Of a DNA stretch of 64,000 bases, positions 25,910 through 60,161 are shown one piece after another. The stretch is from an uncultured Eubacteriales bacterium (GTDB lineage: Bacteria; Bacillota; Clostridia; TANB77; UBA1234): positions 3,713 through 67,712 of the forward strand of contig CAUGFN010000001.1 of assembly GCA_959598745.1 (NCBI GenBank). Reading direction: 5' to 3'. The notes under the pieces are model-generated. The model ran no database searches. It was not told the DNA's origin and saw only the letters and a program-made list of their open reading frames with translations. A program made the translations under genes and the position numbers. Position 1 is the first letter of the stretch; each line of letters begins with the position of its first letter.

Positions 25910-26314
25910 TTACCAAGGCTTTTTATCGCAATGGTCTTTTGGGCAAATGTCTTTTTGACAAGTGTCGCAGTGGTCTTTTTCACAATGATCTTTGTCGCAG
26001 TGGTCCTTGTCATGCTTAAATTCACAATCAACAAATAAATCATCAACTTTAGTGTCAGCAGTAAAGTCGATAGGAATCTCAACTTTCATCTTTTGAATAA
26101 TAGTGTACTTACAGCAACCGTTCTTTTGCATTTCATCACAACAAATATCATGCTTTCTTGGAACAACGATTGGTGTGCCACAGCATTCTGTTTTAATGTT
26201 TCCAACTTTTGCGCAAGGTGTTGTTGTTACAGGTAAACATATCGTTAGGAATTTTTCAATTATTGTTTTAAAATCGCAAAAATCAGGACGGTCAAATTTT
26301 TCATTTTCAAACAT
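25910..26314 (-). CDS. Cys/His-rich small protein with tandem KDHC repeats (possible spore coat/exosporium or metal-binding protein)
   Basis: Translation contains HDKDHCDKDHCEKDHCDTCQKDICPKDHCDKK plus CC pairs. Confidence 0.5.
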   Translation of the reverse strand: MFENEKFDRPDFCDFKTIIEKFLTICLPVTTTPCAKVGNIKTECCGTPIVVPRKHDICCDEMQKNGCCKYTIIQKMKVEIPIDFTADTKVDDLFVDCEFKHDKDHCDKDHCEKDHCDTCQKDICPKDHCDKKPW

Positions 26315-27359: not shown

Positions 27360-28510
27360 GTGATTTTTATGCCAGTTTTAAGATATGGTTCGAGTGGTGC
27401 TTATGTTGAATGGTTACAAAGCACCTTAAAAAAGTTGGAATACTATGCAGGAAATGTGGATGGAATATATGGAAATCAAACAATGGAGGCAGTAAAGAAC
27501 TTTCAAAAAGAATTTGGGCTACAACTGGATGGAATCGTTGGCATAGCGACTTGGAATGCACTAATGCCGTATTTAAATGGTAAACTTTTTGATATAGTTC
27601 CTACAGATATAATATATCCATATAGCATTATGATGAGAAATATAAATGCTTTAGTTACAAAGTATCCTTTTTTAGAATATAGCTATTATGGCAGAAGTAT
27701 AATGGGAAAGAATTTGCCAGTAATAAAAATAGGAAACGGAAGCAAAGAAGTTTTTTATAGTGCATCAATCCATGCAAACGAATGGATTAATTCGGTTGTG
27801 TTTATGAAATTTATTGAGGATTTTGCAAAGGCATATGAAAGTGAAGGAAATATATTTGGCTATGATGCAAAAAAGATATTTAATGAAACAACAATTTATA
27901 TAGCACCTATGGCAAATCCAGATGGAGTGGATTTAGTGCTTTGGCAATTGCCAGTGCGTTCGTCAGCATATATGAATGCCAGAAATATAGCTAGTGGATA
28001 TCCCAATATTCCTTTTCCAAACGGTTGGAAAGCTAATATTGTGCGGAGTAGATTTGAATTTGCAATTTCCCGCCGAATGGCAACTTGCACGTGAAAACAA
28101 GTTTAAACAAGGTTTTGTAAGACCAGCACCAAGAGATTTTGTTGGTTACCGGACCTTTAACTGAGCCGGAATCATTAGCTTTGTACAATTATACACTTGC
28201 ACATGATTTCAAATTGATTTTATCATATCATACACAAGGAGAAATAATATATTGGAGATATTTGGAATTCGAGCCGGTAGGTGCAGAAGAATTGGGAAAA
28301 GAATTTGCCAGAATTAGTACATACACATTAGATGATGAGAAAGAAACAAATAGTTATGCAGGATATAGAGATTGGTACATATCAAAATACAATAGACCTG
28401 GATACACGTTCGAAACAGGCATGGGACAAAATCCGCTACCAATTTCTCAGTTCGAAAAGATATACAAAGACAATGTAGGAGTTTTAGTGACGGCGGCTGT
28501 AAAAACATAG
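27360..28510 (+). pseudogene. Gamma-D-glutamyl-L-diamino acid endopeptidase (M14 peptidase with PG-binding domain), two frameshifts
   Basis: PG_binding_1 domain followed by M14 (SIHANEW). The conserved stretch VDLNLQFPAEWQLARENKFKQGFVRPAPRDFVGY is read only in a third frame between ORFs 27360..28094 and 28139..28510. Frames therefore run 0 -> 1 -> 2, with shifts near 28045 and 28140. Confidence 0.6.
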
Positions 28511-28520
28511 ATAAATTATG

Positions 28521-28549
28521 TTGACTGTATGCGGGAAATATGCTATAAT
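28521..28549 (+). promoter_or_regulatory. Consensus sigma-A promoter TTGACT-17-TATAAT driving the GC-rich bicistronic cassette
   Basis: TTGACTgtatgcgggaaatatgcTATAAT. Followed by an 11-codon uORF (ATGGGCGAAAAAACATGGACTTTGAAGGAGGCATAA) whose last codons contain the RBS of the next gene. Confidence 0.5.
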
Positions 28550-28629
28550 CTATGTCGAAGTTTATCGCTATAGGAGGAAAGCCCATAACTATGGGCGAAA
28601 AAACATGGACTTTGAAGGAGGCATAATTT

Positions 28630-29037
28630 TTGGAAACAACAGCACAGCGGTTAGCAGACATTGAGGAAGTATGGTTAGAAAACGCAGGAGATGTGGCATG
28701 TATTTCGAACCAGTGTGGTATAAGCCAAGGGATGGTGTATTACACAATGCGGAAATATTGCTATAAAAATGGGAAGGACTATCAAAGCTATCTTAGACAT
28801 CCGCATAAACCACATAAACCATATGAACGGCATGTTTATAAGACGCAAAAAAGTGCATCATTAGGAAGAATACAAAGGAAAGAGTACATTCTGACGAAAA
28901 CAAGCGAAGAAATGTCTGAGCAAGTAAGTGAGCTACTTAAAAGTTCGAGTAGTAAAGACATTCTTGCAGGAATTGACTTGCTCATCAGGATGGTTGAAAA
29001 GGAGATTTGTAGAAATGGGAACAACATTGTACATTAA
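28630..29037 (+). CDS. GC-rich ORFan 1 (135 aa, TTG start, HTH-like segment)
   Basis: GAAGGAGG RBS; HTH-like ISNQCGISQGMVYYTMRKY; repeated HKPHKPY. Roughly 41% GC against ~30% background. Confidence 0.45.
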   Translation: METTAQRLADIEEVWLENAGDVACISNQCGISQGMVYYTMRKYCYKNGKDYQSYLRHPHKPHKPYERHVYKTQKSASLGRIQRKEYILTKTSEEMSEQVSELLKSSSSKDILAGIDLLIRMVEKEICRNGNNIVH

Positions 29038-29908
29038 TGGTCGTTCTAAGGAATTAAGGTCCATCAGAGAGTACGTCAAAGCAGGATATACAAAGACGCA
29101 ACTCGCCAACGAGTTTAACTGCTCGGCAGAAACGTTTCTCGAAGCTTTGAAGGAAAAGACTGGTGTCAGATTCAAGGAGTACAACCGTGATTTGGAGCGA
29201 AATGAAAGTCGGTATAAGAGAAAAACAGGTCTTGAGATAAAGAGAAAAGAGGTAAATAGTATGTCAGAAACAACTGAAATCATTGAAAGCGAGCCGAATG
29301 TGAGTTACGAAAAGGAAAGTGCTCCGACGTTCCGGAATCGCGAAAGCGAACTAAACGAGCAGGCGGAGGAAAGCAAAAAAAATCTTTCTGAGATGAAAGA
29401 AAAACTTGAAAGAGCCAAAGTAAATCTCACAGAAATACAAAATGAAAAAGAAGAGATTCGAAACAAGGCTAACCAATGCAATGAAGAGTACGTGAGACTA
29501 AAAGTGGAGTTAGAAGAACTCAGAAAGAGTTTTGCCGAAGTTACTGCGCGATTAGAGACTCGTAAGGATGATGTCGAATCTTTGGAACATAATATAAGCG
29601 AAGAAGAAGAAAAGCTCTACAAAATAAACAAAGAGCTTGAAAGCTACAAGACGGTTGAAATCTATTGTGATGAGACCGGGTTCCACATCTCAAACGTGGA
29701 ATATATGCCTGACGATGATACCATCGATGAAATTCTTTGCAAACTGCGTAAAGATCCTAGGATGGAGCAGTATATGTTCAAAACGGTCCAGAACGTTGCT
29801 AAAATAAAGGCAGCCATCGCACTTGTGGAGATTGTCGGATTGGTGGAGTATTCTGTACAGCTCGAAAAGTGCAGTAAGGATGTTCAGGACGCATACTCTT
29901 GCGATTGA
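29015..29908 (+). CDS. GC-rich ORFan 2 (about 297 aa: N-terminal HTH-like domain, long coiled coil, C-terminal Cys-containing domain)
   Basis: AAGGAG-N9-ATG at 29015, overlapping the 3' end of ORFan 1. Coiled-coil heptads; weak hairpin after the stop. Confidence 0.45.
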   Translation: MGTTLYINGRSKELRSIREYVKAGYTKTQLANEFNCSAETFLEALKEKTGVRFKEYNRDLERNESRYKRKTGLEIKRKEVNSMSETTEIIESEPNVSYEKESAPTFRNRESELNEQAEESKKNLSEMKEKLERAKVNLTEIQNEKEEIRNKANQCNEEYVRLKVELEELRKSFAEVTARLETRKDDVESLEHNISEEEEKLYKINKELESYKTVEIYCDETGFHISNVEYMPDDDTIDEILCKLRKDPRMEQYMFKTVQNVAKIKAAIALVEIVGLVEYSVQLEKCSKDVQDAYSCD

Positions 29909-30326
29909 AAAATTGCACATAATTGTGCATAAGTTCTAATCGCTTCTAAAGTTTAAGTGCTAGAATGGAATGTAAATTCTTTTCTGGCACTTTTTCTATG
30001 CTAGAAAACATCATGTCTATTTTTAATATATGTTATAAAATGTAATGTATATACAAAAATTAATCGGATTTTGAATAAAATGTGTGTTAAATCGGCATGA
30101 ACGTATTTTTGTGAAGGCTAAAGCAAGTAATATTAAAATGAATAAGGTAGATAATAATAAGTAAAAATAATACTTTTACAAAAAAAGTAGACATTTTTGT
30201 AAAATTATGTAGACAAGAATATAAAATTATGGTAAAATAAGACTTGTGTTCAGGAATAAAATTCCTATAATGGGAATAAGATTACATTAGAAAACATATT
30301 AAAATGCGAATGAGGGGGATAAAAAA

Positions 30327-59199: not shown

Positions 59200-59369
59200 G
59201 ATATTTCACAGACAAAGTTATAGGTTTAAAATAAATATGCCATAGAAAAAGTGAAATTGACATAAATAAAGATAAATGGTATAATGAATCTGTGCTTATA
59301 TCTTTATACACTCCTTGGCAGCATGTATGGACATAAGTAATATTTGATAATTAAAAGGAGAAAAACGTT

Positions 59370-60038
59370 ATGCAACAATGGATGACCAATTACACAGAGG
59401 TGCAGTTAGAATTCTTGGACTACAAGCGAGAAATGGAAAGCTTACCTTGGCAGGAAAGAGAGCACGATTATAGGCTTTCAAGGGAACTGTACGTAAGTAT
59501 AAAACACCAACTTCGTGACAAATTCCCGAGAACAGCAATGTACACCTCTAACGAGCGACTTTTGGATTTTTCCGAAAAGCTTGCGAGCATGGTCGAGGAC
59601 TATCAAGTGGCTGTGATGTCTTATGAGGCATTGGCACAGGTTGTGGCTGAACAGAGTTACCGGATTCGTCCGATTATAGGAATAATCCGGAAAGACGAAC
59701 TCTTTGCACTTGTGGATAAGAGAGCAAGGATAATCGGTGTTCACGTACCGAAAAGCAAGAAACTGAAAGCTTTGGAACAGAGAGTAGAGAAAGCTTTAGT
59801 GCAGCTTGATGGCTTCATTACGGGGAAAGGTGGAACACCTAACGCGTTCGTCCGTGTGGCTCTCGAAAACTTTATTTTCGAACAGAAGCATGATTCCAAT
59901 GTGCCGGAAATCAAGATTGTTGCCGTAAAAAAGCCGATTAAAGGAGGCAAAGAGGTTGACATCCGTGGTTTTGGAGGACTTCAAATGAGCTTCAAGGTAT
60001 TTGAAGGAAGAGAGGTAGTATATTACCATATCATTTGA
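59370..60038 (+). CDS. GC-rich ORFan (222 aa)
   Basis: Promoter TTGACA-17-TATAAT (59266-59294); AAAGGAG RBS; terminator GCAGTGAGA...TCTCACTGC followed by TTTTT (60040-60075). Roughly 45% GC. Confidence 0.4.
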   Translation: MQQWMTNYTEVQLEFLDYKREMESLPWQEREHDYRLSRELYVSIKHQLRDKFPRTAMYTSNERLLDFSEKLASMVEDYQVAVMSYEALAQVVAEQSYRIRPIIGIIRKDELFALVDKRARIIGVHVPKSKKLKALEQRVEKALVQLDGFITGKGGTPNAFVRVALENFIFEQKHDSNVPEIKIVAVKKPIKGGKEVDIRGFGGLQMSFKVFEGREVVYYHII

Positions 60039-60161
60039 TGTCGCGAAAGCAGTGAGATTTTTCTCACTGCTTTTTGAATATGTCACCATTGAAAAAAATA
60101 TAAAAGTATGATATAAGTATATCTATGTAAACAAGAATATAAGAAAAGAGGATTAGATATT

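What the first reader, a model, noticed from the sequence alone, without database searches (positions are those of the whole stretch)
28521..29930. Bicistronic GC-rich cassette encoding two HTH-like proteins, the second with a long coiled coil and a Cys-containing C-terminal domain
The unit runs: consensus promoter, an 11-codon uORF whose 3' end contains the RBS of gene 1, gene 1 (135 aa, TTG start, helix-turn-helix-like ISNQCGISQGMVYY, HKPHKPY repeat), then an overlapping gene 2 (about 297 aa). Gene 2 has an N-terminal HTH-like segment, a coiled coil of roughly 150 residues, and a C-terminal domain with CDETGFH...C...C. The cassette sits immediately after a decayed M14 peptidase gene and before a 420-nt AT-rich spacer. 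The architecture (small DNA-binding protein plus coiled-coil effector) resembles regulatory or abortive-infection-like phage-derived modules, but I cannot assign a family. This is the best candidate here for an undescribed two-gene system.
Basis: partly seen in the sequence, partly recalled or inferred. Interest (0 to 1): 0.7.

Follow-up and report, generated by a model that had tools for sequence, protein, structure and literature searches.

The report
Fast-evolving orphan DNA-binding gene pair
This is a real two-gene operon for two small predicted DNA-binding proteins, found only in a narrow group of uncultured gut Clostridia; every strain sampled carries it at the same chromosomal site, yet it evolves about ten times faster than its neighbours, is reshuffled by recombination, and has no known function.

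Summary
The cassette is real. It has a near-consensus sigma-A promoter, gene 1 (28630-29037, 135 aa, TTG start), an overlapping gene 2 (29015-29908, 297 aa) and an intrinsic terminator. Both genes are under purifying selection (dN/dS 0.1-0.8; gene 2 C-terminal domain 0.02-0.07). Neither matches any Pfam, NCBIfam, PHROG or PADLOC family beyond coiled-coil noise and sub-threshold HTH hits.

Searches of billions of proteins found only close alleles plus five or six distant clusters, all from uncultured gut Clostridia. There were no phage hits. The pair is not strain-specific or mobile: 10 of 10 contexts sharing the identical downstream SSB gene carry it. In related species it again lies upstream of the same SSB-rnhB-rsmD block.

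Flanking proteins are 96-100% identical between strains, whereas gene 1 is 62-82% and gene 2 79-85% identical. Allelic dS reaches 0.7-1.6. Blocks of near-identity abut blocks of 66-75% identity, which indicates recombination.

Best reading: an autoregulated, lineage-specific DNA-binding regulatory or nucleoid-associated pair. A defence or abortive-infection role is unsupported.

The parts
28514..28549 (+). Promoter. AATTATG lies directly upstream of the -35 TTGACT (28521-28526), followed by a 17-nt spacer and a TG-extended -10 TGCTATAAT (28541-28549).
   Evidence: scores it 11/12, the best site in the region. The hexamers and the AATTATG extension are conserved in all six lineages, including distant ones and the solo gene 2, while the spacer varies.
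28553..28565 (+). Invariant element TGTCGAAGTTTAT at or near the transcription start. It contains a perfect Spo0A-box-like heptamer TGTCGAA. Function unknown.
   Evidence: GTCGAAGTTTAT is identical in 31 loci, including the related species L019-L022. TGTCGAA occurs 7 times in 64 kb against 4.2 expected, so the Spo0A reading is only a lead.
28581..28596 (+). 5' UTR hairpin GCCCATAACTATGGGC between a decoy SD-like AGGAGG (28573-78) and the real RBS.
   Evidence: the 6-bp stem is kept in most alleles, and two pairs change on both sides (C-G to G-U or U-A). The evidence is modest.
28591..28626 (+). Probably not functional.
   Evidence: In other alleles the ATG is replaced by ATT and a 1-nt indel changes the frame.
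28614..28621 (+). RBS of gene 1 (GAAGGAGG).
   Evidence: Invariant in all alleles and in L019.
28630..29037 (+). Gene 1 (135 aa, TTG start). It has a conserved N-terminal HTH-like domain (residues ~10-56) ending in YLRxPHKxH, a basic variable and disordered middle (57-90, net charge +7), and a conserved acidic C-terminal amphipathic helix (ELLxSxxxxDxxxGIxLL).
   Evidence: alignments; dN/dS 0.10-0.30 in the N half, 0.28-0.80 in the C half; AF2 model, pLDDT 65; weak HTH matches; charges.
29015..29908 (+). Gene 2 (297 aa). It has a basic N-terminal beta-hairpin plus three-helix HTH domain (1-62, with a basic tail to 80), an acidic disordered linker (81-104), a 15-heptad coiled coil (105-212), and a conserved alpha/beta C-terminal domain (213-297; order beta-beta-alpha-alpha-beta-alpha).
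   Evidence: alignments; dN/dS 0.11-0.26 overall, 0.02-0.07 in the C-terminal domain; AF2 model, pLDDT 79; sub-threshold HTH_7, YlxM and 2lvs matches; single heptad register with 84% hydrophobic a/d positions; N-terminal domain charge +7.
29913..29929 (.). Perfect palindrome TTGCACAtaatTGTGCA, 5 nt after the gene 2 stop codon. It is either a stem-loop or a site for a dimeric protein.
   Evidence: Palindromes of different sequence sit at the same place in L019 (CGCAtaatTGCG) and L025 (TAGAGA...TCTCTA).
29956..29997 (+). Intrinsic terminator of the operon: stem AGTGCTAGAA/TTCTGGCACT followed by a T-run.
   Evidence: Read. One search shows the stem is kept across alleles, with changes at different positions on the two arms. 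The simple scan missed it because the loop is long.
30000..30150 (.). Hypervariable AT-rich spacer, the 3' end of the variable island.
   Evidence: Identity between alleles is 40-67% here against 93-100% from 30163 onward.
30150..30326 (+). Conserved promoter and leader of the downstream PRK05813-type SSB gene. This is not part of the cassette but may be linked to it. AAATTATGTAGAC overlaps its -35, and GTAGAYA repeats start at 30147, 30187 and 30209.
   Evidence: The region is 92-95% identical to related species whose coding sequences are 83-90% identical.

Best explanation
The locus is a chromosomal (core-genome) bicistronic operon restricted to a narrow clade of uncultured, probably spore-forming, gut Clostridia. 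A strong sigma-A promoter drives one mRNA that ends at an intrinsic terminator.

Gene 2 encodes a cytoplasmic protein that most likely forms a parallel coiled-coil dimer. Two basic N-terminal HTH domains would bind DNA. About 15 nm of coiled coil would separate them from a strongly constrained acidic C-terminal domain that contacts a conserved host partner. Gene 1 encodes a small HTH protein with a basic linker and an amphipathic C-terminal helix. I infer that it acts with or on gene 2 as a co-regulator or modulator. It is dispensable in at least one lineage.

The most likely job is sequence-specific DNA binding for regulation or nucleoid-associated function. This would include autoregulation through the conserved AATTATGTTGACT element that overlaps the operon's own -35. 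It may also include control of the adjacent SSB promoter, which carries AAATTATGTAGAC at its -35.

The locus evolves exceptionally fast. Deeply diverged alleles are shuffled by homologous recombination within and between sister species. That recombination could also account for the raised GC3 through biased gene conversion (my inference; not tested).

Shown: the operon anatomy, coding status, selection pattern, distribution, synteny and mosaicism. Inferred: DNA binding, dimerisation, the operator, the gene 1-gene 2 partnership and the target genes.
For: Anatomy and expression signals:
- The promoter, RBS and TTG/GTG start are conserved, and the terminator stem is kept despite changes on both arms.

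Coding status and constraint:
- Gene 2 dN/dS is 0.11-0.26 overall and 0.02-0.07 in the C-terminal domain.
- Gene 1 N-terminal half dN/dS is 0.10-0.30.

DNA-binding domains:
- HTH_7 is hit by 4 of 8 gene-2 family members (best E 7e-5) and 2 of 7 gene-1 family members.
- A PDB profile search gave 2lvs (E 0.017) and the YlxM-type 1xsv (E 0.055), aligned over the HTH plus the following helix.
- Foldseek returned SpoIIID, YlxM, GerE and LysR-type DNA-binding domains at E 0.7-3.
- The AF2 models show three-helix units.
- The gene 2 N-terminal domain has net charge +7.

Coiled coil:
- One heptad register runs over 108 residues with 84% hydrophobic a/d positions.
- AF2 predicts a single helix at pLDDT about 90.

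Core, syntenic and co-conserved:
- (10 of 10 contexts).

Candidate operator:
- AATTATGTTGACT is conserved at the -35 in six lineages whose proteins are only 27-47% identical.
- The 13-mer AAATTATGTWGAC occurs only twice in 64 kb, both times at the -35 of the two adjacent promoters.
- Four of the nine AATTATGT copies in the window lie within 1.85 kb here.

Fast evolution and mosaicism:
-.
- Fisher p values from 1e-5 to 1e-14, and Hudson-Kaplan Rm of at least 40.
Against: - No HTH hit reaches a curated threshold. For example, HTH_7 scores 16.5 bits against a 23.8-bit cut-off for the window protein.
- By count alone the operator motif is not significant: 15% of shuffles give at least 2 hits. It could simply be an extended promoter element.
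- A purely housekeeping regulator would not be expected to show allelic dS of 0.7 where the flanks show about 0.08. Such deep polymorphism points to some form of balancing or frequency-dependent selection, which a plain regulator model does not explain.
- There is no expression or binding data.
Confidence: 0.45

Rival explanations
1. The pair is a conflict or specificity module kept polymorphic by balancing or frequency-dependent selection. Examples would be phage or plasmid exclusion, an immunity-region-like repressor pair, a toxin-antitoxin-like pair, or an incompatibility determinant. Under this model the variable blocks (gene 1 C-terminal half plus gene 2 N-terminal domain, and the coiled coil) are the specificity surfaces. 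The invariant C-terminal domain is the effector or output.
For: - Allelic dS is far above the flanks. The closest genome by its flanks (L001, flank dS about 0.08) has one of the most divergent gene 2 alleles (dS 0.69).
- The alleles are mosaic and recombining.
- Across related species the proteins are 35-45% identical where the neighbours are 84-98% identical.
- The layout is two small overlapping genes behind a constitutive-looking promoter, with an HTH protein first.
- The codon usage is atypical.
Against: - No toxin, nuclease, NTPase or other effector domain was found. PADLOC hits are coiled-coil matches only.
- There are no phage or plasmid-borne relatives.
- The locus is core, not accessory, and is not in a defence island.
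- Gene 2 exists without gene 1 in one lineage.
- dN/dS is below 1 in every segment, with no signature of positive selection.
Confidence: 0.22
2. Gene 2 is a structural DNA tether or chromosome-organisation factor of a spore-former, working like RacA or MatP. The HTH heads would bind chromosomal sites, the coiled coil would act as a spacer, and the C-terminal domain would dock onto a conserved cell-pole, divisome or replisome partner. Gene 1 would modulate it.
For: - The architecture is HTH, long dimeric coiled coil, then a highly constrained C-terminal domain.
- The host has sporulation genes: a GerW/YtfJ-family protein above cut-off and a PdaB-like protein. SpoIVB lies next to the solo gene 2.
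- The locus is stably linked to replication and repair genes: SSB and rnhB here, uvrC in L039.
- By background knowledge, cell-biological factors of sporulation such as RacA, SirA and RefZ are typically lineage-restricted.
- A Spo0A-box-like TGTCGAA is invariant at the transcription start region.
Against: - There is no sequence or fold similarity to RacA, MatP or any known tether.
- Deep within-species polymorphism and mosaicism are not expected for such a factor.
- The promoter looks like a strong vegetative sigma-A promoter, not a sporulation-specific one.
- No binding sites or partner are known.
Confidence: 0.18
3. The cassette is a decaying remnant of a mobile element or a pair of spurious ORFs with no present function. 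On this view the GC richness reflects foreign origin.
For: - GC3 and CGG usage are atypical for the genome.
- The family is orphan with a tiny distribution.
- One allele (L015) has a frameshift in an A-run of gene 1.
Against: - There is purifying selection throughout, extreme in the C-terminal domain at 0.02-0.07.
- The ORFs, promoter, RBS and terminator have been maintained across species whose neighbouring proteins have diverged to 78% identity.
- There are no integrase, repeat or att-like boundaries and no paralog in the window.
- The L015 frameshift lies in a homopolymer of a single short-read assembly. The downstream frame is still intact, so it is either very recent or an error.
Confidence: 0.04

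Closest known systems
Resolvase/invertase-type and sigma-70-region-4-like trihelical HTH domains (Pfam HTH_7; YlxM/UPF0122, PDB 1xsv; SpoIIID, PDB 2l0k)
   Same: Both N-terminal domains have the pattern helix, G, T/S-x-x-x-(I/L)-A, (F/Y)-x-(V/C/I)-S, then a recognition helix. Several family members give sub-threshold hits. Foldseek aligns the gene 2 N-terminus to SpoIIID with 26% identity over 91 columns at E 0.66.
   Different: No hit passes a curated cut-off. Gene 2 adds an N-terminal beta-hairpin, a 108-residue coiled coil and a novel C-terminal domain. Gene 1 adds the YLRxPHKxH motif and a C-terminal helix. Neither has a recombinase or sigma context.
RacA (Bacillus subtilis) and MatP (E. 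coli): DNA-binding heads on a coiled coil that tether chromosome regions
   Same: Both combine a DNA-binding domain with a long dimeric coiled coil. RacA is also restricted to a lineage of spore-formers (background knowledge).
   Different: RacA has a MerR-type winged helix and MatP a ribbon-helix-helix. Neither has the C-terminal alpha/beta domain or a small partner gene. No similarity was detected. Neither is known to be hyperpolymorphic.
Type II toxin-antitoxin and Abi-type two-gene modules
   Same: Two short overlapping genes under their own promoter, with the first encoding an HTH protein, and fast-evolving strain-variable sequences.
   Different: No toxin or effector family matches. Gene 2 itself carries an HTH. 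Gene 2 occurs alone. The locus is core and syntenic rather than accessory.
Polymorphic specificity loci with mosaic alleles, such as agr and com pherotype loci or temperate-phage immunity regions (CI/Cro)
   Same: Conserved flanks surround a short island of deeply diverged, recombining alleles shared across sister species. Like an immunity region, the island encodes two HTH proteins.
   Different: There is no signal peptide, secreted peptide, sensor kinase, divergent promoter pair or prophage context. dN/dS stays below 1.
H-NS/Hha and Rok-type nucleoid-associated proteins
   Same: A coiled-coil oligomerisation element joined to a DNA-binding domain, with a small partner protein in the H-NS/Hha case. 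Both have a restricted phyletic distribution.
   Different: The domain order is reversed, there is no sequence or fold match, and an extra conserved C-terminal domain is present. This is a purely architectural analogy from background knowledge.

Membership tests
Pfam HTH_7 (PF02796), resolvase-type HTH | Whole-protein score at or above the gathering cut-off of 23.8 bits | tested here: not met
   Window gene 2 scores 16.5 bits (E 0.0098) over residues 13-41, and gene 1 has no hit. Across the families, 4 of 8 (best E 7.2e-5) and 2 of 7 (best E 0.002) members hit the model. This suggests the fold class but not membership.
Generic trihelical HTH DNA-binding fold | Three-helix bundle with helix-turn-helix geometry and a basic surface | tested here: inconclusive
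   AF2 gives gene 2 helices at 14-22, 27-33 and 38-49 (pLDDT about 86) and gene 1 helices at 11-17, 22-29 and 33-46 (pLDDT about 78). Foldseek's best matches are HTH DNA-binding domains but only at E 0.7-3. The gene 2 N-terminal domain has net charge +7.
Type II toxin-antitoxin / abortive-infection pair | A recognisable toxin or effector domain in one partner | tested here: not met
   Pfam, NCBIfam, PHROGs and PADLOC give only coiled-coil or weak HTH matches. A profile of the C-terminal domain finds nothing in the PDB.
Type II toxin-antitoxin / abortive-infection pair | Obligate co-occurrence of the two genes, and an accessory or mobile distribution | tested here: not met
   Gene 2 sits alone behind the same promoter in L023 and L039, with no gene 1 detectable by tblastn. 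The locus is present in 10 of 10 contexts of the identical SSB gene.
Known anti-phage defence systems (PADLOC: JetC, LmuB, PbeC and others) | The ATPase/SMC head or other catalytic domain of the matched component, and the partner genes of the system | tested here: not met
   Hits of E 1e-6 to 1e-3 align only to the coiled-coil arms of models 588-1473 positions long. There is no P-loop, and the neighbours are housekeeping genes.
YabA (PF06156) | Score of at least 30 bits and a conserved C-terminal Zn-binding Cys/His cluster | tested here: not met
   The score is 17 bits in 1 of 8 members, mostly over the coiled coil. Only C286 is invariant; C218, H224, C242 and C296 vary.
Phage- or mobile-element-derived module | Homologs on viral or plasmid-like contigs, or flanking integrase/att features | tested here: not met
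   None were found in IMG/VR or INPHARED. There are no flanking repeats or paralogs. Plasmids were not searched.
RacA/MatP-like chromosome tether | Binding to clustered chromosomal sites, and docking of the distal end to a polar or divisome partner | not testable with these tools
   Only the architecture (DNA-binding head plus coiled coil plus distal domain) could be checked, and it is compatible. No sequence or fold similarity was found.

The most novel reading that the evidence does not exclude
The operon is a previously unrecognised kind of chromosomal specificity or immunity locus. It would be a core-genome pair of DNA-binding proteins whose interaction or recognition surfaces are kept as ancient alleles shared across sister species. 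Those alleles would be maintained by frequency-dependent selection and shuffled by recombination. Possible roles include excluding or silencing particular phages or plasmids, or discriminating kin DNA. The invariant C-terminal domain would be the common output.
Probability: 0.18. Interest if true: 0.7.

Novelty: new variant of a known kind. Interest (0 to 1): 0.45.

Why it matters
If the reading is right, this is an undescribed protein family pair with an HTH, coiled-coil and new C-terminal domain architecture, confined to an uncultured lineage of human-gut Clostridia.

Its main value is as an evolutionary outlier. It is a core, syntenic locus whose proteins are 35-45% identical between species whose neighbouring proteins are 84-98% identical. 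Its alleles differ by dS 0.3-1.6 within a species complex and are visibly mosaic.

Loci that behave this way, such as pherotype, immunity and restriction-specificity loci, usually mark a biological conflict or recognition function. The pair is therefore a concrete handle for finding such a function in organisms that cannot yet be grown.

It does not by itself overturn anything or open a long-standing question. No effector activity is evident.

Tried and rejected
- **Family assignment.** I scanned Pfam, PHROGs, NCBIfam and PADLOC. Only coiled-coil noise (SMC, Rad50, JetC, LmuB, ATG16 and similar) and sub-threshold HTH hits came back.
- **Solved structures by sequence**. Nothing was significant. 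The apparent E=2.5e-16 hit of the gene 2 N-terminal domain to 8vd6 'CAP repeat' is an artefact. That protein is a de novo designed fivefold repeat (PMC12339374). Each repeat scores only 13-14 bits against the same 27-residue HTH segment.
- **Paralogy of the two N-terminal HTH domains.** hhalign aligns the expected segments but at E 0.07-0.15, which is not significant.
- **Non-coding RNA explanation for the GC-rich block.** Rfam gave no hit at E up to 1, and the coding frames are under selection.
- **Phage or mobile origin**. No support.
- **Zn-binding Cys cluster.** Rejected because the residues are not conserved.
- **Functional uORF.** Rejected because it is not conserved.
- **P0013** (gene 1 fused to a zinc-ribbon N-terminus). 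It looks like a chimeric assembly on a 1.25-kb contig, so I ignored it.
- **Organism and literature.** 'UBA4698' appears in no paper, and no source names either protein.
Full report
**1. What is in the sequence**

The region 28514-29997 is a compact transcription unit on the + strand.
- The promoter is TTGACT, 17 nt, TG-extended TATAAT (28521-28549). It scores 11 of 12, the best site in the surrounding 3 kb.
- Gene 1 runs 28630-29037 (135 aa) from a TTG start, 8 nt after a GAAGGAGG RBS.
- Gene 2 starts at ATG 29015 inside the end of gene 1 (23-nt overlap, AAGGAG RBS) and ends at 29908 (297 aa).
- A perfect palindrome (29913-29929) and then an intrinsic terminator (29956-29997) follow.
- The block is 38-41% G+C in a roughly 30% G+C chromosome.
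- Nothing in Rfam matches it. It has no paralog or flanking repeats in the window.

**2. The signals and the genes are real**

I aligned alleles from independent metagenome assemblies.
- Both promoter hexamers, the TG, the RBS and the 12-mer GTCGAAGTTTAT after the -10 are invariant. The promoter spacer and UTR vary.
- The start codon is TTG in four of the five alleles aligned and GTG in the fifth.
- The terminator stem is maintained through changes at different positions on each arm.
Its ATG is ATT in other alleles, and an indel shifts its frame.

Pairwise Nei-Gojobori estimates confirm that both genes are coding.

| Segment | dN/dS |
|---|---|
| Gene 2, overall | 0.11-0.26 |
| Gene 2, residues 211-297 | 0.02-0.07 |
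| Gene 1, N-terminal half | 0.10-0.30 |
| Gene 1, C-terminal half | 0.28-0.80 |

**3. The proteins**

AF2 models gene 2 at mean pLDDT 79. Its parts are:
- a beta-hairpin plus three short helices (residues 4-49);
- a basic helix to residue 80;
- a disordered acidic linker (82-103);
- one continuous helix from 105 to 212;
- a small beta-beta-alpha-alpha-beta-alpha domain (213-297).

A single heptad register over residues 105-212 puts hydrophobic residues at 84% of a/d positions, against 30% overall. This is a genuine coiled coil of about 15 heptads, roughly 108 residues rather than about 150. The N-terminal 80 residues carry net charge +7.

Gene 1 is modelled at pLDDT 65. It has an N-terminal helical HTH-like unit, a disordered basic middle and a C-terminal amphipathic helix.

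No curated family is matched.
- The many SMC, Rad50, JetC and LmuB hits align only to the coiled coil.
- HTH-likeness rests on recurring sub-threshold evidence. HTH_7 is hit in 4 of 8 gene-2 family members and 2 of 7 gene-1 family members.
- PDB profile hits are 2lvs and the YlxM-type 1xsv. Foldseek returns SpoIIID, YlxM, GerE and LysR-type DNA-binding domains at E 0.7-3.
- A seemingly strong PDB hit (8vd6) is a designed repeat protein and is an artefact.
There is no metal-binding cluster.

**4. Distribution and context**

A word-indexed search of 5.8 billion proteins found only 5 clusters for gene 2 (84-100% identity) and 11 for gene 1 (63-99%).

An exhaustive HMMER search of 1.84 billion representatives with the C-terminal domain found five distant full-length homologs. 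They are 287-313 aa, 36-53% identical in that domain, and have the same architecture. A profile search added one more. JGI metagenomes added one near-identical locus. No source names any of them. No phage or viral contig encodes a relative.

The hosts are uncultured human-gut Clostridia. The GTDB representatives are a Hadza MAG and 'Clostridiales bacterium UBA4698', which are 93-96% identical to the window over 20 kb. Sporulation-type genes are nearby.

Every close allele sits in the same place: PdaB-like, split M14, gene 1, gene 2, PRK05813-type SSB, rnhB, rsmD, then on to hrcA-grpE-dnaK. All 10 distinct contexts that carry the identical SSB protein also carry the pair. It is therefore core, not strain-specific.

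The distant homologs show the following contexts.
- In two more distant lineages (L019 and L025) the pair again lies directly upstream of SSB-rnhB-rsmD.
- In L027 it follows an intact M14 gene.
- Gene-1 homologs precede gene 2 in 4 of the 5 distant lineages.
- In the fifth lineage, gene 2 stands alone behind the same promoter, between uvrC and spoIVB.

**5. The unusual part: evolutionary rate and mosaicism**

The table gives amino-acid identity to the window proteins.

| Comparison | Neighbouring proteins | Gene 1 | Gene 2 |
|---|---|---|---|
| Strains of the same species complex | 96-100% | 62-82% | 79-85% |
| L019 (more distant related species) | 93-99% | 44% | 45% |
| L025 (more distant still) | 84-97% | 45% | 35% |

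- Allelic dS is 0.3-0.8 for gene 2 and up to 1.6 for gene 1. The flanks show dS 0.01-0.36 and dN 0-0.025.
- The genome closest by its flanks (L001, flank dS about 0.08) has one of the most divergent gene 2 alleles (dS 0.69).
- Divergence is blocky. The window and L001 differ at 6 of 252 sites up to 28851, then at 80 of 353 sites beyond it (Fisher p 2e-14). The window and L007 alternate 15%, 5%, 26% and 5% divergence along the operon, with p from 5e-5 to 1e-14 between adjacent blocks.
- Among 17 haplotypes the segment types re-assort, and the four-gamete bound is Rm of at least 40. Recurrent mutation inflates that figure at this level of divergence.
- The variable island runs from the M14 stop codon to about 30150.
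- GC3 is 0.36 for gene 1, 0.44 for gene 2 and 0.51 in the C-terminal domain. The 43 other ORFs average 0.21 +/- 0.05. GC3 is raised in every lineage.
- The rare codon CGG is used about 60 times more often here than elsewhere in the window.
- I read this as old alleles exchanged by homologous recombination, with GC-biased gene conversion as a plausible cause of the GC3 excess. That last step is inference.

**6. Candidate cis-elements**

- The heptamer AATTATG abutting the -35 (AATTATGTTGACT) is retained in six lineages whose proteins are only 27-47% identical to the window's; the L028 copy differs by one or two bases (GTTATGTTGACT). This includes the solo gene 2.
- The 13-mer AAATTATGTWGAC occurs only twice in 64 kb. 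Both copies overlap the -35 hexamers of the operon promoter and of the adjacent SSB promoter.
- Four of the nine AATTATGT copies in the window fall within 1.85 kb here.
- The counts alone are not significant. The argument rests on position and conservation.
- GTCGAAGTTTAT contains a perfect Spo0A-box heptamer and is identical in 31 loci. It may be a regulatory site, the 5' end of the mRNA, or a partner of the RBS in a weak fold.

**7. Interpretation**

*Best supported (confidence about 0.45).* The locus encodes an autoregulated, lineage-specific pair of DNA-binding proteins. Gene 2 is a coiled-coil dimer whose heads bind DNA and whose strongly constrained C-terminal domain contacts a conserved host partner. 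Gene 1 is a dispensable co-factor. The pair possibly also acts on the neighbouring SSB promoter.

*Rivals.*
- A conflict or specificity module under balancing selection (about 0.22). This is the only model that naturally explains the deep polymorphism. It lacks any effector domain, mobile context or accessory distribution.
- A RacA/MatP-like chromosome tether of a spore-former (about 0.18).
- A functionless remnant (about 0.04). Selection and synteny contradict this.

The phage-derived, abortive-infection and strain-specific suggestions find no support.

**8. Comparison with known systems and novelty**

The N-terminal domains belong, at best, to the broad class of resolvase or sigma-region-4-like trihelical HTH domains. 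Membership of any curated family was tested and not met. The overall architecture, the C-terminal domain and the gene-1 family are undescribed.

I rate the locus a new variant of a known kind: HTH DNA-binding proteins with a coiled coil. Interest is moderate at 0.45. It is a striking evolutionary outlier in an uncultured gut lineage, but it has no demonstrated activity.

**9. Side observation that may deserve its own follow-up**

The 'decayed' M14 peptidase gene is interrupted by two single-base insertions relative to the intact 379-aa ortholog in L027.
- The two sites are ATT GTG [C] GGA and GGT TAY [C] GGA.
- At both sites the 0-frame codon is CGG, which occurs only 3 times in 16,021 codons of the other ORFs.
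- CGGA is invariant in all 10 loci checked.
- All three frame segments remain about 78% identical to the ortholog.
- dN/dS within the species complex is 0.05-0.15.

This is the signature expected of two programmed +1 frameshifts at a 'hungry' codon, each reading GGA as the glycine found in the intact ortholog. It is not the signature of a pseudogene.

Noticed in passing
window 27360-28510 (junctions at ~28038-28050 and ~28146-28158): The upstream M14 peptidase gene (PG_binding_1 + Peptidase_M14) is split into three frame segments by two 1-nt insertions relative to the intact 379-aa ortholog in L027. The sites are ATT GTG [C] GGA and GGT TAY [C] GGA. At both, the 0-frame codon is CGG, which is nearly unused in this genome (3 of 16,021 codons). 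CGGA is invariant in all 10 loci checked. All three segments stay about 78% identical to the ortholog, and dN/dS is 0.05-0.15. This looks like a double programmed +1 frameshift at a rare codon rather than decay.
   Followed up: partly
window 30150-30326: The 177 nt upstream of the 220-aa double-OB SSB gene (NCBIfam PRK05813, above cut-off) are 92-95% identical to related species whose coding sequences are only 83-90% identical. The stretch holds a TAGACA-17-TG-TAAAAT promoter, three GTAGAYA repeats starting at 30147, 30187 and 30209 (40 and 22 nt apart), and an AGGAAT/ATTCCT hairpin in the leader. Rfam has no match.
   Followed up: partly
window 59257-60075: This is a second GC-rich orphan cassette. 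It is a 222-aa ORF (59370-60038) with GC3 0.46, the highest of 43 ORFs. It carries two of the three in-frame CGG codons found outside the cassette and M14 gene. It has its own TTGACA-17-TATAAT promoter and a hairpin terminator. It has no Pfam family.
   Followed up: no
window 25910-26314 (- strand): A 134-aa Cys-rich ORF with KDHC/DKDHC repeats and CC pairs has no Pfam match. It is called as a gene in all related contigs and may be a spore-coat-type protein.
   Followed up: no
L031:1-971: In one strain a large serine recombinase (Resolvase + Recombinase + Zn_ribbon_recom, 568 aa) lies where the PdaB-like gene normally sits, just upstream of M14. An integrated element therefore borders this region in some strains.
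   Followed up: no
L020:1-4608: In a related species the region upstream of the pair carries a tyrosine integrase, an HTH_17 excisionase-like gene, a PemK toxin, a sigma-70 r4 protein and Dnd-associated/SMC-like genes. L019 has secA and housekeeping genes there instead. This is an integration hotspot about 3 kb upstream of the pair.
   Followed up: no
L015:5380-5760: One allele of gene 1 has a frameshift in an A-run (A7 against A6). The rest of the gene is intact in the new frame. It is either a very recent inactivation or a homopolymer error in a single short-read assembly.
   Followed up: partly
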